11,138 bases of DNA from a virus (IMGVR_UViG_2617270964_000013), one strand, 5' to 3'; counted from the first letter of the stretch, positions 466 to 11,138 are shown. Numbers and translations: made by a program. The notes: generated by a model not told the origin, from the letters alone.

Positions 466-878
466 ATAAATTTTATCAGGGTGTTTTTTATCCGGAAGCA
501 CTTAAAGATGCCTATGTTTCTGCCGGAACGTGGCCGGAACATGCTGCCGATGTGAGTGATGAGGCAATGGCTGTTTATAGCCAGTACCCACCGGAAGGGA
601 AAATGCTGGGAACGGATAATAATGGTTATCCTGTGTGGGTTGACATCCCCTCCCTGTCGCCTGAAGAACGAGTTGCCCGGGCTGAGCAAACACGACGTGA
701 TTTACGTACGCGGGCGGATTCTGAAATAGCCTGGCGACAGGATGCTGTTGACGCGGATATCGCGACGGATGAGGAAACCGCCGCGTTGTCTGAGTGGAAG
801 AAGTACCGGGTACTGTTAATGCGGGTTGATACAGCAAAACCCGTATGGCCTACACCTCCGGGGGAACAGGCCAGTTAA
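462..878 (+). CDS. Tail fibre assembly chaperone (Tfa; P2 gpG / Mu U family)
   Basis: ATG at 462 overlaps the fibre stop (ATGA). The C-terminus LSEWKKYRVLLMRVDTAKPVWPTPP is the hallmark Tfa C-terminal motif. The track's longer ORF from 321 would overlap the fibre gene in another frame, so the 462 start is preferred. Confidence 0.85.
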   Translation: MNKFYQGVFYPEALKDAYVSAGTWPEHAADVSDEAMAVYSQYPPEGKMLGTDNNGYPVWVDIPSLSPEERVARAEQTRRDLRTRADSEIAWRQDAVDADIATDEETAALSEWKKYRVLLMRVDTAKPVWPTPPGEQAS

Positions 879-9329: not shown

Positions 9330-9499
9330 TGAGTAATTTAGACGTATTGACCCAGACTCAAGCTGGCACACTTATCTCCAGATTTTAATCTAACAATTGG
9401 CTCTATGCTAAATAGTGAGTTGTTAGCTAGTAGCATATTCTTCTTGGCTCATTTAAATAGTGCTTATGCACATTGAAGAATTAATGGTTAAAAATGAAA

Positions 9500-9526
9500 C
9501 AGCCTCATACAGAGGCTGTGATTTTG
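9500..9526. terminator. Bidirectional intrinsic terminator between gpD and the cargo gene
   Basis: Stem CAGCCTC / GAGGCTG (7 bp) with loop ATACA, followed by TGATTTTG on the + strand and preceded by the complement of TTTCATTTTT on the - strand. Confidence 0.5.
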
Positions 9527-9545
9527 TATAATTGGAGCACAGGGA

Positions 9546-10370
9546 TTATTCTTGTTGAAAATGAAGAGAACACTCTATAGGTGATTCTTCATTAAACTGT
9601 TCAAATAGCTCAATCATACGATAACGGCTAATTCCCACTATTGTTCCATCTTTTTTAAAAGACAAACCAATTCCAGCCAAAAGAAATGTTGACTCCAGTT
9701 CTTTTTTTAATTCTTGCCCCTTAGAGAAAAAATACATTGCACCACCACTCATTCCCTCTGGAGAAGGGCCTTTACTTACCTGTCCTTTATATTTTAAATC
9801 TATATTCTTAACATTGTATGTTCCTGTTATTTCAATTTTATTGAATGTTTTAACCTCGGATATTATAGTGAAATACTTGGCATTTTTAAAAAACAGGCCA
9901 TCTTCGTTAGAAGCTACCGTTTGATTTACTATTGAACTAGGGCGTTTTGTTCTGTGAATTGTTTGTGTTTTGCACCAGTTTTTAGGGAAGCCTGTCCATG
10001 CAAAATGTTTCTTATCAAATCCAATAAAATTGAAATTATCTTTAAGCGAGAAATAATTTTTCCCATCAAGTATCATATTAAAGCAATCGACAATGACTAA
10101 ATCATCTTCTTCAAAAATTCGATGTCCTATAGAGATACTAGTCAAAGCAAAAAATTCACCATCAGAACCCAGTATGTAAATATTTCTGATGTCATCTTTA
10201 TCCCTCAGAGCATGAGCAGCAAAAACCACATAGTGTGATTGCTTGTAATATATAAACGTTCCAGTCGATGAATAATTATAATCGCCTAGTTCATTTCGTA
10301 TGTAGAGCGGAATAACAAATTTTTGTGATTGTCTATCATAACTATCAGATTGATATTTAAAGTCAGTCAT
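9546..10370 (-). CDS. Predicted cytoplasmic trypsin-fold (S1/Trypsin_2-like) serine peptidase; AT-rich cargo gene of unknown role
   Basis: 274 aa. Motifs in canonical order: GTFIYY..HYVVFAAHAL (His53, TAAHC-like), EEDDLVIVD (Asp90, D-I-A-L-L-like), PEGMSGGAMYF (Ser208, GDSGG-like), then GTIVGI. The N-terminus is hydrophilic with no signal-peptide-like stretch. Only long ORF in the island. Confidence 0.6.
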   Translation of the reverse strand: MTDFKYQSDSYDRQSQKFVIPLYIRNELGDYNYSSTGTFIYYKQSHYVVFAAHALRDKDDIRNIYILGSDGEFFALTSISIGHRIFEEDDLVIVDCFNMILDGKNYFSLKDNFNFIGFDKKHFAWTGFPKNWCKTQTIHRTKRPSSIVNQTVASNEDGLFFKNAKYFTIISEVKTFNKIEITGTYNVKNIDLKYKGQVSKGPSPEGMSGGAMYFFSKGQELKKELESTFLLAGIGLSFKKDGTIVGISRYRMIELFEQFNEESPIECSLHFQQE

Positions 10371-10546
10371 TTTTTATCCATTTCCAGATGAAAGAATAAT
10401 TTCTGCTTGTTTTAATTGATAACCACAGTTTCTACCGTGCACTAATACACAGATATGCATCATAACATCGTTCAAAGCAGGCTGTTAGTTGGAATCTCAA
10501 CTTATACAACTTAGAATAGCGGCAGCACCACGTTAGGGAGGTCGCT

Positions 10547-10807
10547 ATGTTCCGTTGTCCGCTTTGTGGCGCATCTGCCCGCATCCGCACCAGTCGTCCG
10601 GAAAATGATTCAAACACTGTGCGGCAAAAGTATTACCAGTGTAACAACCTGGAATGCGGCGTATGCTTCTCAACACTGGAAGCTTTCCATAAATTCACAT
10701 CGAAACACGCCTCCGGCGTTCACTCTTCAGAAGGTATCCCGTGGCATGAGCTGCCAGCTTCACACAGGGGAAACAATCAGATGAGCTTGCCTTTACCTCA
10801 GAATTAA
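10547..10807 (+). CDS. ogr: Ogr/Delta-family zinc-finger late-gene transcriptional activator
   Basis: Starts MFRCPLCGASARIRTSR...YYQCNNLECGVCF, with Cys at positions 4, 7, 32 and 37 as in P2 Ogr. AGGGAGG RBS 5 nt upstream. Found after gpD as in P2, though separated from it by the cargo island. Confidence 0.85.
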   Translation: MFRCPLCGASARIRTSRPENDSNTVRQKYYQCNNLECGVCFSTLEAFHKFTSKHASGVHSSEGIPWHELPASHRGNNQMSLPLPQN

Positions 10808-10867
10808 CAGGCAGAATTGCCGGAGTAACAAAAAAGCGATAGATTACGCGCGGGTGCCTTTCGGCTG

Positions 10868-11131
10868 ATGGTCGGAGGGAATACCCGAAGGCCAGATGTG
10901 GAAAGGCCCCGGAAAACATACCTGTTTAACCGAGGCCCTAACCGCATTACCTTGACAAGTGAAAGGTTAGCGCCTCTCCAGAAAAGGAGCAAGTGCTATG
11001 TCGCAAAAATCGCTTACGGCCATCACGTTCTGCGTGACGGCAATCCTCATCATCTGGATGCTGCACGGTTCACTGTGCGAAATACGGATGAGCTTCTGGG
11101 GAGCGGAGTTTGCGGCGTTCTTACAGTGTAA
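10868..11131 (+). CDS. Possible Mok-like overlapping reading frame (translational coupling frame for the hok-like gene)
   Basis: 87-codon ORF in another frame, starting upstream of and overlapping nearly all of the hok-like ORF, as mok overlaps hok. No clear RBS and no recognisable protein features. Confidence 0.25.
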   Translation: MVGGNTRRPDVERPRKTYLFNRGPNRITLTSERLAPLQKRSKCYVAKIAYGHHVLRDGNPHHLDAARFTVRNTDELLGSGVCGVLTV

Positions 11132-11138
11132 GCAGTAA
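10998..11138 (+). CDS. Hok/Gef-family-like type I toxin (small membrane peptide)
   Basis: 46 aa MSQKSLTAITFCVTAILIIWMLHGSLCEIRMSFWGAEFAAFLQCKQ. It has a hydrophobic transmembrane stretch and SLCEIR plus E-x-AAF blocks resembling Hok (KSLCEIRYRDGHREVAAF). GGAG RBS 8 nt upstream. The stop codon is the last 3 bases of the window. Confidence 0.5.
   Translation: MSQKSLTAITFCVTAILIIWMLHGSLCEIRMSFWGAEFAAFLQCKQ

What the first reader, a model, noticed from the sequence alone, without database searches (positions are those of the whole stretch)
10868..11138. Hok/Gef-like type I toxin with overlapping mok-like frame just beyond ogr, ending at the window edge
A 46-aa ORF with a good RBS encodes a hydrophobic peptide with the Hok-family SLCEIR and E-x-AAF blocks, and an 87-codon frame overlaps it the way mok overlaps hok. 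The peptide diverges from the hok copies I can recall (hok of R1, hokB), notably in the segment between the transmembrane helix and the LCEIR motif. It sits at the ogr-distal end of the prophage tail module, where it could act as a stabilising addiction module; a cis-encoded Sok-like antisense RNA would be expected on the - strand over the leader.
Basis: partly seen in the sequence, partly recalled or inferred. Interest (0 to 1): 0.55.

Follow-up and report, generated by a model that had tools for sequence, protein, structure and literature searches.

The report
Known prophage Hok toxin, no conserved mok
The 46-codon gene at the window's end is a real but already catalogued and tested Hok membrane toxin, carried with its antisense-RNA control region at the end of a P2-like prophage; the overlapping "mok-like" frame is not conserved in its relatives.

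Summary
The 46-aa peptide passes Pfam HOK_GEF (29.9 bits, cut-off 22). RefSeq annotates this locus as "Hok/Gef family protein", and about 28% of complete E. coli genomes carry it. The exact peptide is homolog 72_1621 in a 2025-26 preprint, which cloned it and found it toxic.

The window stops at the hok stop codon, which looks like a prophage-trimming artefact. The 3' hairpin, fbi element and terminator lie 10-120 nt further on. I read them from a locus identical over the last 311 bases.

The R1-type mRNA switch is present. The full-length fold has a 15-bp 5'-3' (tac/fbi) helix (z = -7.0). Cutting the 3' end flips it to a tac/ucb stem. Across 37 relatives, the same tac columns covary with both partners.

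A Sok-like antisense gene is predicted on the minus strand. Its -10 hexamer, TAACCT, matches the sokW -10 region that Takada et al. mutated in their promoter-less construct.

The 87-codon frame is not a conserved mok. Fifteen of 37 relatives have stops in all three frames upstream of hok.

Verdict: ordinary and already known. How hok is translated without mok is a minor open point.

The parts
10817..10845 (+). Predicted hok promoter: -35 TTGCCG (10817-10822), 17-nt spacer, -10 TAGATT (10840-10845), 6 nt before the predicted 5' end
   Evidence: Read from the sequence. The -10 (TAGATT/TAGAAT/TAAATT) is conserved at the same distance from GGGTGCC in all relatives and in hokW, while upstream context differs. 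It is weak by consensus (8 of 12) and was not reported by the generic scan.
10852..11138 (+). The part of the hok mRNA inside the window (predicted 5' end at 10852; the transcript continues about 120 nt past the window edge)
   Evidence: The Rfam RF01794 match starts at model position 1 = 10852. Family conservation begins here. The window is identical to L001 6329-6639 over its last 311 bases.
10852..10866 (+). tac element (GGGTGCCTTTCGGCT): pairs with fbi in the full-length mRNA and with ucb in the 3'-truncated mRNA
   Evidence: MFE folds. Helix 1 has 15 pairs, 98% paired, 4 compensatory. Helix 1 has 12 pairs, 98.4% paired, 4 compensatory at the same tac columns.
10898..10910 (+). ucb element (GTGGAAAGGCCCC): alternative partner of tac; its 3' part also pairs with the GAGG region
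   Evidence: tac/ucb, helix 5 (GGCCCCGG/CCGAGGCC hairpin, 96% paired).
10932..10935 (+). Invariant GAGG at the position of the R1 mok Shine-Dalgarno; no conserved start codon follows it here
   Evidence: Invariant in 37 of 37 sequences and aligned with the GAGG of hokW and R1-type loci. In the controls, R1-type and hokW have ATG 8-9 nt downstream. In this subfamily none is conserved.
10899..10957 (-). Predicted Sok-like antisense RNA (about 58-62 nt): single-stranded 5' tail, then hairpin GGCCUCGG...CCGGGGCC, then UUUCC
   Evidence: Ends inferred from the promoter position and the hairpin. A 74-nt minus-strand segment folds at -31.4 kcal/mol, z -4.07. The hairpin pairs are G-C/A-U only, so the stem forms on both strands (helix 5). 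No expression data.
10964..10992 (-). Predicted Sok promoter: -35 TTGCTC (10992->10987), 17-nt spacer, -10 TAACCT (10969->10964)
   Evidence: The -10 hexamer and spacer length match sokW (TTGCCT-17-TAACCT). Primer YO-421 of PMC8621323 differs from the wild-type sequence at exactly this hexamer (TAACCT to GAGCCG), which I take to be the mutation in their promoter-less sokW construct. Salmonella copies have TTTACT-17-TATCCT, and TATCCT is the -10-like hexamer I read at the equivalent position of the R1-type locus. Only 6 of 12 to consensus; not found by the generic scan.
10970..10979 (+). dcb / anti-SD segment (GCGCCTCTCC): GCCTC pairs with GAGGC in the truncated fold; CTCC pairs with the hok SD
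   Evidence: helix 7 (94.8% paired); helix 3 (96.6% paired).
10984..10989 (+). hok Shine-Dalgarno AAGGAG, 8 nt before the ATG; overlapped by the Sok -35 on the other strand
   Evidence: Read from the sequence. Predicted to stay base-paired (P unpaired <= 0.04) in the two leaders that finished, L001 and L002, for all three modelled states; the script crashed before the other eight.
10998..11138 (+). hok coding sequence, 46 aa, Hok homolog cluster 72 (72_1621)
   Evidence: Pfam HOK_GEF 29.9 bits against a cut-off of 22. RefSeq WP_000078916.1 'Hok/Gef family protein'. dN/dS 0.08-0.38. Exact peptide cloned and tested for toxicity in the preprint.
10868..11131 (+). 87-codon overlapping frame (+2 relative to hok): real ORF in this lineage, not a conserved mok
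   Evidence: Open only in L001-type leaders. Interrupted or lacking a start in P88, the Stx-phage copy and the Salmonella and Klebsiella copies. A synonymous TGC/TGT change at hok Cys27 creates a TGA in this frame in most relatives.

Best explanation
This is a hok/sok-type type I toxin-antitoxin module carried as an accessory gene. It sits between ogr and the right attachment site of a P88-like (Peduoviridae, Xuanwuvirus) prophage integrated beside ihfA.

Inferred mechanism, by homology to R1 hok/sok and backed here by folds and covariation:
1. A weak constitutive promoter makes a roughly 400-nt mRNA that starts at 10852.
2. Its 5' end (tac) pairs with a 3' element (fbi, 50-65 nt beyond the window edge). 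This locks the full-length RNA in a closed form, with the conserved GAGG paired to ucb.
3. Slow 3' trimming back to a GC-rich hairpin removes fbi. tac then pairs with ucb instead, and the leader refolds.
4. A short, unstable antisense RNA (Sok-like, minus strand, about 10957 to 10899, promoter TTGCTC-17-TAACCT) binds the refolded leader and triggers decay.
5. When antisense supply stops, the stable mRNA is translated into a 46-aa inner-membrane peptide that kills or arrests the cell.

Shown: family membership, both alternative helices with covariation, purifying selection on the peptide, and (from the preprint) toxicity of the exact peptide. Inferred: transcript ends, existence and action of the antisense RNA, 3' processing.

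Unlike R1, there is no conserved mok reading frame, so hok translation is probably not coupled to a leader ORF. The biological role (prophage retention, help with lysis on induction, or exclusion of other phages) is open.
For: Pfam HOK_GEF is above its gathering score and PHROG 251 gives E 1.3e-22. RefSeq and phage records annotate the gene as Hok/Gef or 'MokW-like host killing'. The Rfam hok-leader model RF01794 matches 10852-11011 with E 1.8e-8; bona fide hokW and an R1-type locus match on the same (mRNA) strand at 113.5 and 87.2 bits. The full-length fold is -161.3 kcal/mol, z -7.0, with a 15-bp tac/fbi helix. The truncated fold switches to tac/ucb plus a GAGGC/GCCUC hairpin, z -5.75. On 37 distinct relatives, 94.3% of cells are paired against 36-45% for slid controls, and 26 pairs change on both sides (0 of 500 shuffles reach this). 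tac/fbi and tac/ucb each have 4 compensatory pairs at the same tac columns, and the 3' hairpin has 5. The Sok -10 hexamer matches the sokW hexamer altered in primer YO-421 of the promoter-less construct. dN/dS is 0.08-0.38. The exact peptide 72_1621 was cloned and tested; only 19_179, 60_1482 and 69_1540 of 45 homologs were non-toxic. The same D-ogr-hok layout occurs in Salmonella prophages with a peptide 70% identical.
Against: No transcript data exist for this locus, so the mRNA ends, the 3' processing and the antisense RNA are all predictions. Both promoters are weak by consensus, and the generic scan reported none. The Rfam score (48.2) is below the gathering score (59). fbi, the 3' hairpin and the terminator are outside the window and were read from a locus identical over the last 311 bases. 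The hok SD stayed fully paired in every modelled state in the two leaders that completed, and no mok is conserved, so how translation starts is unexplained. Chromosomal hokA, hokB and hokC are reported as unable to mediate post-segregational killing (preprint introduction).
Confidence: 0.85

Rival explanations
1. A canonical three-gene hok/mok/sok locus. The 87-codon frame, or a shorter version starting at TTG 10952 or ATT 10946 downstream of GAGG, would be a working mok whose translation opens the hok ribosome-binding site, and Sok would act by blocking it.
For: In this window the +2 frame is open from 10868 to 11131 and ends 7 nt before the hok stop; R1 mok ends 4 nt before. Only 2.6% of shuffles give an ORF that long. 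The GAGG at the mok-SD position is invariant. The hok SD is predicted to stay paired, which is the situation mok resolves in R1 (PMC9841398).
Against: ATG 10868 has no SD and lies inside the tac stem region. No ATG, GTG or TTG lies 5-13 nt after GAGG; TTG 10952 is 16 nt away. The frame is closed, with no start, in phage P88 (92.7% identical DNA), the Stx-phage copy and the Salmonella and Klebsiella copies. Fifteen of 37 distinct leaders have stops in all three frames between GAGG and the hok SD, and the frame that stays open differs among the rest. The GAGG-to-SD stretch is the most indel-rich part of the leader.
Confidence: 0.15
2. A decayed, non-functional relic, like several chromosomal hok loci of E. 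coli K-12: the peptide can be toxic when forced, but the native locus is never expressed.
For: hokA, hokB and hokC chromosomal loci were reported not to mediate post-segregational killing (preprint introduction). mok is absent. One relative (L093) has lost the tac region.
Against: Purifying selection acts on the peptide (dN/dS 0.08-0.38). Compensatory changes keep tac/fbi, tac/ucb and the 3' hairpin intact across E. coli, Salmonella and Klebsiella. The promoter -10 elements are conserved. The locus is carried by phages recorded as isolates and is present in 1520 of 5426 complete E. coli genomes.
Confidence: 0.07
3. Same molecular module, but its role is to help the phage rather than to retain it. 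Hok would be made when the prophage is induced and would speed lysis and release, as shown for hokW-sokW of Sakai prophage 5. A further alternative is killing of the cell on infection by another phage (abortive infection), as reported for R1 hok/sok against T4.
For: hokW-sokW in a prophage increases phage release about 2-fold after mitomycin C (PMC8621323). [quoted passage not shown] The neighbouring low-GC ORF has homologues in defence-island-like settings.
Against: HokW is only 31% identical and belongs to a different hok lineage; the Stx-phage copy related to this window is a second, unstudied locus. The preprint found no enrichment of hok near defence systems (section heading; discussion). 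PADLOC gives no hit. Nothing here tests role.
Confidence: 0.4

Closest known systems
Hok homolog cluster 72 (peptide 72_1621) of Escalera-Maurer et al., bioRxiv 10.1101/2025.08.07.668861; RefSeq WP_000078916.1 'Hok/Gef family protein'
   Same: Identical 46-aa peptide. It is listed in their alignments and in Table S2, was cloned as pAZ3::72_1621 (LRP137), and is not among the three non-toxic homologs. It is annotated in the 99.8%-identical E. coli TUM1880 locus.
   Different: Nothing at the peptide level. The preprint states that it did not analyse Mok, Sok or the mRNA, so the regulatory anatomy described here is additional.
Second, lom-adjacent hok locus of Stx phages (VT2-Sakai AP000363.1 44532-44840; peptide 72_1589)
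   Same: Same subfamily: 82% DNA identity over leader and gene, a 46-aa peptide, and the same tac, ucb, GAGG, Sok promoter, 3' hairpin and fbi. Also tested in the preprint.
   Different: Sits in a lambdoid phage next to lom rather than a P2-like phage next to ogr. All three frames are closed upstream of hok. It is unannotated in the VT2-Sakai, 933W and vB_EcoP_24B records and labelled 'MokW-like' in NC_029120 and two other phage records.
hok/mok/sok of plasmid R1 (paradigm; PMC9841398)
   Same: Peptide family. 5' tac pairing alternately with 3' fbi and internal ucb. GAGG paired to ucb in the closed form and to dcb in the open form. A GC-rich 3' hairpin ending the processed mRNA. An antisense promoter just upstream of the hok SD on the other strand.
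   Different: 39% identity over 31 residues. A 46-aa peptide rather than 52 aa. No conserved mok start after GAGG. Rfam leader score 48 against 87 bits. On a prophage, not a plasmid.
hokW-sokW of Sakai prophage 5 (PMC8621323)
   Same: A prophage-borne hok/sok. Identical -10 hexamer TAACCT and 17-nt spacer for the antisense promoter. The same TAGAAT-type -10 before GGGTGC.
   Different: A different locus and lineage: HokW is 51 aa and 31% identical. It has an in-frame 70-aa mok, ATG at -57. Rfam 113.5 bits.
HokA of E. coli K-12
   Same: The best-matching named Hok: 43% identity over 47 residues, with shared WM..SLCE and AAFL.CK blocks and both cysteines hard-coded (preprint introduction).
   Different: The NCBIfam HokA equivalog cut-off is not met (34 against 89 bits). 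K-12 annotates an in-frame mokA. It falls in a different 60%-identity cluster (93 against 72) in the preprint.

Membership tests
Hok/Gef toxin family (Pfam PF01848) | Profile match at or above the curated gathering score | tested here: met
   29.9 bits against a cut-off of 22, E 4.1e-7, residues 7-44 on profile positions 5-42 of 42. PHROG 251 E 1.3e-22.
Hok/Gef toxin family (Pfam PF01848) | Residues conserved in more than 80% of Hok peptides (M1, C16, T18, L30, C31, E32, E41 in the preprint's logo numbering) | tested here: met
   M1, C12, T14, L26, C27, E28 and E37 of this peptide fall at those positions in the BLASTP alignment to R1 Hok and in the preprint's File S3 alignment.
Hok/Gef toxin family (Pfam PF01848) | Growth arrest or killing on induced expression | not testable with these tools
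   Literature only. The exact peptide 72_1621 was cloned and tested; 42 of 45 homologs were toxic, and the three non-toxic ones are 19_179, 60_1482 and 69_1540.
HokA (NCBIfam NF007290, equivalog) | Score at or above the curated equivalog cut-off | tested here: not met
   34 bits against a cut-off of 89. The Hok subfamily model NF007279 gives 21.6 against 73. The peptide is a Hok-family member but not a HokA orthologue.
hok/sok-type type I TA locus (R1 paradigm) | Long-range 5'-3' pairing (tac/fbi) closing the full-length mRNA | tested here: met
   A 15-bp helix in the MFE fold, z -7.0. 98% paired over 37 sequences, with 4 pairs changed on both sides and all single fbi changes G-U compatible. 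fbi lies outside the window and was read from L001, which is identical over the last 311 window bases.
hok/sok-type type I TA locus (R1 paradigm) | Alternative tac/ucb pairing after 3' truncation, with GAGG moving from ucb to dcb | tested here: met
   The truncated fold. tac/ucb is 98.4% paired with 4 compensatory pairs at the same tac columns; GAGGC/GCCUC is 96.6% paired but mostly invariant.
hok/sok-type type I TA locus (R1 paradigm) | GC-rich 3' stem-loop that ends the processed mRNA | tested here: met
   GACGGGGGAG..CCCCCGTC lies 10-31 nt beyond the window end. It is 98.8% paired with 5 compensatory pairs (helix 14).
hok/sok-type type I TA locus (R1 paradigm) | Cis-encoded antisense RNA gene (promoter plus terminator hairpin) opposite the leader | tested here: inconclusive
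   The sequence features are present and positionally homologous to sokW and R1 Sok. The hexamers are weak, the generic scan is negative, and no expression data are available.
hok/sok-type type I TA locus (R1 paradigm) | mok: an upstream ORF with its own SD-proximal start that reads across the hok start region | tested here: not met
   The controls R1-type and hokW have ATG at -57, just after GAGG. In this subfamily no start is conserved, 15 of 37 leaders are closed in all frames, and the window's frame is specific to its lineage.
Rfam RF01794 (sok / hok leader model) | Score at or above the gathering score | tested here: not met
   48.2 bits against 59, E 1.8e-8, full-length match 1-157. Relatives score 35.6-44.8; hokW scores 113.5 and R1-type 87.2.

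The most novel reading that the evidence does not exclude
Hok cluster 72 (the ogr-adjacent copies in P2-like prophages, the lom-adjacent copies in Stx phages, and the Salmonella and Klebsiella copies) may be a natural mok-less branch of the hok/sok family. It keeps the whole tac/fbi/ucb/dcb switch and the invariant GAGG but has no leader ORF. Hok translation, and its repression by the antisense RNA, would then work differently from the R1 paradigm. One possibility is that GAGG serves as a structural or ribosome-standby element, with control mainly through RNA decay.
Probability: 0.45. Interest if true: 0.4.

Novelty: already known. Interest (0 to 1): 0.17.

Why it matters
As a discovery it matters little. 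The gene is annotated in RefSeq, about 28% of complete E. coli genomes carry the locus, and the exact peptide has been catalogued and tested.

Three things are useful:
1. The window, like many IMG/VR prophage contigs, cuts this locus at the stop codon. That removes the fbi element and terminator, which any fold-based check needs.
2. Phage annotations labelled 'MokW-like' merge two different hok lineages that sit in the same Stx phages.
3. This lineage keeps the full R1-type RNA switch, with three-way covariation, but lacks a conserved mok. That makes it a natural test of whether leader-ORF coupling is essential in hok/sok systems. The recent Hok survey explicitly left that question open.

Tried and rejected
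1. Anti-anti-SD idea. I supposed that GAGGC capturing GCCUC in the truncated RNA would free the hok SD and explain translation without mok. The ensemble calculation kept the SD paired (P unpaired <= 0.04) in the full-length, truncated and Sok-blocked models. The script crashed after two of ten planned leaders (L001, L002), so this rests on two sequences. The idea is dropped and the question left open.
2. Generic sigma-70 scan. It found no promoter in the region, so the promoter calls rest on positional homology instead.
3. Folding the window alone for fbi cannot work, because fbi is outside the window. I used the identical locus L001.
4. The species-representative genome scan gave only 7 loci, some on evident contaminant contigs. 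The viral scan returned 80 loci that all encode the identical peptide. Diversity came instead from look-ups of diverged proteins.
5. MAFFT of the window leader against hokW and R1 misaligned the stretch between GAGG and the hok SD. I aligned the antisense promoters by eye and by direct string comparison.
6. Membership in HokA or in the studied hokW lineage is rejected.
7. A 3-codon mini-ORF (GTG 10959 to TAG 10970) was considered as a leader peptide and rejected because its start is not conserved.

Full report
**1. Observation**

The sequence and the mechanical ORF list confirm the 46-aa ORF at 10998-11138 (+). Its peptide is MSQKSLTAITFCVTAILIIWMLHGSLCEIRMSFWGAEFAAFLQCKQ. AAGGAG lies 8 nt before the ATG. 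The 87-codon ORF at 10868-11131 is in the +2 frame. ogr (Pfam Ogr_Delta, 52.4 bits) is at 10547-10807.

**2. Identity of the peptide**

- Pfam HOK_GEF scores 29.9 bits against a gathering score of 22.
- PHROG 251 'MokW-like host killing' gives E 1.3e-22.
- The NCBIfam HokA equivalog and the Hok subfamily model both fall below their cut-offs.
- The best named relative is K-12 HokA, 43% identical. R1 Hok is 39% over 31 residues and HokW 31%.
- A 46-aa subfamily (MSQK...AEFAAFLQCK) occurs in E. coli, Shigella, Salmonella and Klebsiella. Every member that carries a source name is called Hok/Gef family protein.
- dN/dS against relatives is 0.08-0.38, so the frame is translated and under purifying selection.

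**3. Where it sits**

The ogr-hok stretch is 99.8% identical to E. coli TUM1880. There the order is tail genes, gpD, a hypothetical gene, ogr, hok (WP_000078916.1), then ihfA-pheT. It is 96% identical to phage P88 (Xuanwuvirus, Peduoviridae) and related phages.

The leader plus gene is found in 1520 of 5426 complete E. coli genomes. A Salmonella prophage with a peptide 70% identical has the same D-ogr-hok-ihfA layout.

Many IMG/VR contigs, like the window, end exactly at the hok stop codon. The edge is therefore a trimming artefact. The window's last 311 bases are identical to L001, which I used for the missing 3' part.

**4. Prior knowledge**

Takada et al. (PMC8621323) showed that hokW-sokW of Sakai prophage 5 is a working type I TA that aids phage release. 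That locus is at about 57.5 kb of VT2-Sakai. The copy related to this window is a second locus next to lom, at 44.5 kb.

A 2025-26 preprint (10.1101/2025.08.07.668861) catalogues 1264 Hok peptides. The window's exact peptide is 72_1621. It was cloned as LRP137 and tested; only 19_179, 60_1482 and 69_1540 of 45 homologs were non-toxic. The authors state that Mok, Sok and the mRNA were not analysed and that the role of hok in prophages is unknown.

**5. mRNA anatomy**

Conservation across 31 representative loci begins at a -10 hexamer (TAGATT or TAGAAT) followed by GGGTGCCTT. It ends at AAGGCACCC, which is followed by a terminator hairpin.

The full-length model (L001 6353-6708) folds at -161.3 kcal/mol, z -7.0. 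It has a 15-bp 5'-3' helix and a GGCCCCGG/CCGAGGCC hairpin. [quoted passage not shown] This is the R1 scheme described in PMC9841398.

On 37 distinct sequences:
- The full-length structure is 94.3% paired, against 36-45% for slid controls.
- Twenty-six pairs change on both sides (0 of 500 shuffles reach this).
- tac/fbi has 4 compensatory pairs, and tac/ucb has 4 at the same tac columns. This three-way covariation is what two mutually exclusive helices should leave.
- The 3' hairpin has 5 compensatory pairs.

A helix between the codons just after the hok AUG and the C-terminal coding region (99% paired) explains why that region is conserved even at synonymous sites.

The Rfam 'sok' model reads in the mRNA sense. 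hokW scores 113.5 and an R1-type locus 87.2 on the sense strand. This subfamily scores only 35.6-48.2 against a gathering score of 59.

**6. Antisense gene**

On the minus strand, TTGCTC-17 nt-TAACCT lies just upstream of the hok SD position. It is followed by a 5' tail complementary to the variable leader stretch, then the hairpin GGCCUCGG...CCGGGGCC, then UUUCC.

sokW has TTGCCT-17-TAACCT. Comparing the authors' primer YO-421 with the wild-type sequence shows TAACCT changed to GAGCCG, which I take to be the mutation in their promoter-less construct. Salmonella copies have TATCCT. That is also the -10-like hexamer I read at the equivalent position of the R1-type locus, on the reverse complement of the sequence.

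The hexamers are weak by consensus and the generic scan is negative. Expression is untested.

**7. mok**

As controls, the R1-type locus and hokW have an ATG 8-9 nt after GAGG, at -57 relative to hok.

In this subfamily the window's frame is open from -130 only in its own leader type. P88, the Stx-phage copy and the Salmonella and Klebsiella copies have in-frame stops and no ATG, GTG or TTG in any frame that reads across the hok start. Fifteen of 37 leaders are closed in all three frames, and the frame that stays open differs among the others. A synonymous TGC/TGT change at Cys27 toggles a TGA in the frame.

By chance alone the ORF is mildly unusual: 2.6% of shuffles give one as long.

I conclude that mok is not a conserved part of this lineage. 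My attempt to explain mok-free activation through release of the SD failed on the two leaders computed.

**8. Verdict**

This is a genuine, canonical-looking hok/sok module of a known, catalogued and tested lineage. The one modestly interesting residue is the apparent absence of mok.

Noticed in passing
window 9546-10370 (-), within a low-GC island at about 9330-10540: A 274-aa ORF between gpD and ogr at 31-37% GC. It has no Pfam, PADLOC or PDB-sequence hit. H53, D90 and S208 (in GMSGG) are invariant. A confident AlphaFold model (pLDDT 90.7) matches trypsin/chymotrypsin-fold serine proteases. About 100 'hypothetical' homologues are scattered across Proteobacteria, some beside OLD-family nuclease, type I R-M and Abi_alpha genes. 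It is a candidate accessory or defence protease.
   Followed up: partly
window 11138 (last base); loci L015, L017 and others: The window and dozens of IMG/VR contigs end exactly at the hok stop codon. Prophage trimming at gene boundaries removes the 3' hairpin, fbi and terminator of this locus.
   Followed up: yes
L003 1521-1878 (VT2-Sakai AP000363.1, about 44.5 kb) versus L098 703-1030 (about 57.5 kb): Stx phages carry two different hok loci. One is the studied hokW (51 aa, with an in-frame 70-aa mok). The other is an unstudied 46-aa copy next to lom that is the relative of this window. Some phage records label the second one 'MokW-like' or leave it unannotated.
   Followed up: partly
L091 1054-1904, L092 1055-1904, L093 about 1030-1410 (Salmonella): Tandem pairs of complete hok loci of this subfamily occur about 490 bp apart. 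One copy (L093) has had its tac region replaced while the peptide and fbi remain.
   Followed up: partly
window 11001-11015 with 11103-11117 (alignment A2 columns 153-167 with 255-269): The codons just after the hok AUG pair with the C-terminal coding region (99% paired). This explains the near-invariant DNA of GGAGCGGAGTTTGCGGCGTTCTTACAGTGTAA even at synonymous sites.
   Followed up: partly
L001 6859-7003 (-), about 220-365 nt beyond the window end: An Rfam STnc540 sRNA match beside ihfA, weaker (42.7 bits) than in the Salmonella locus L095 (178 bits). The prophage attachment site appears to lie at or in this sRNA / ihfA 3' region.
   Followed up: no
window 662-838 (+): A weak Rfam IS009 match (34.4 bits, gathering score 117, E 4.7e-5) inside a stretch covered by a long ORF (321-878 +). 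Probably chance or a coding-sequence similarity.
   Followed up: no
Literature lead: Salmonella D23580 prophage BTP5 (PMC7067206): The ogr gene of this P2-like prophage was reported as transcribed in all conditions tested. If BTP5 carries the adjacent hok/sok locus, as the Salmonella loci L095 and L096 do, part of that signal could come from it.
   Followed up: no
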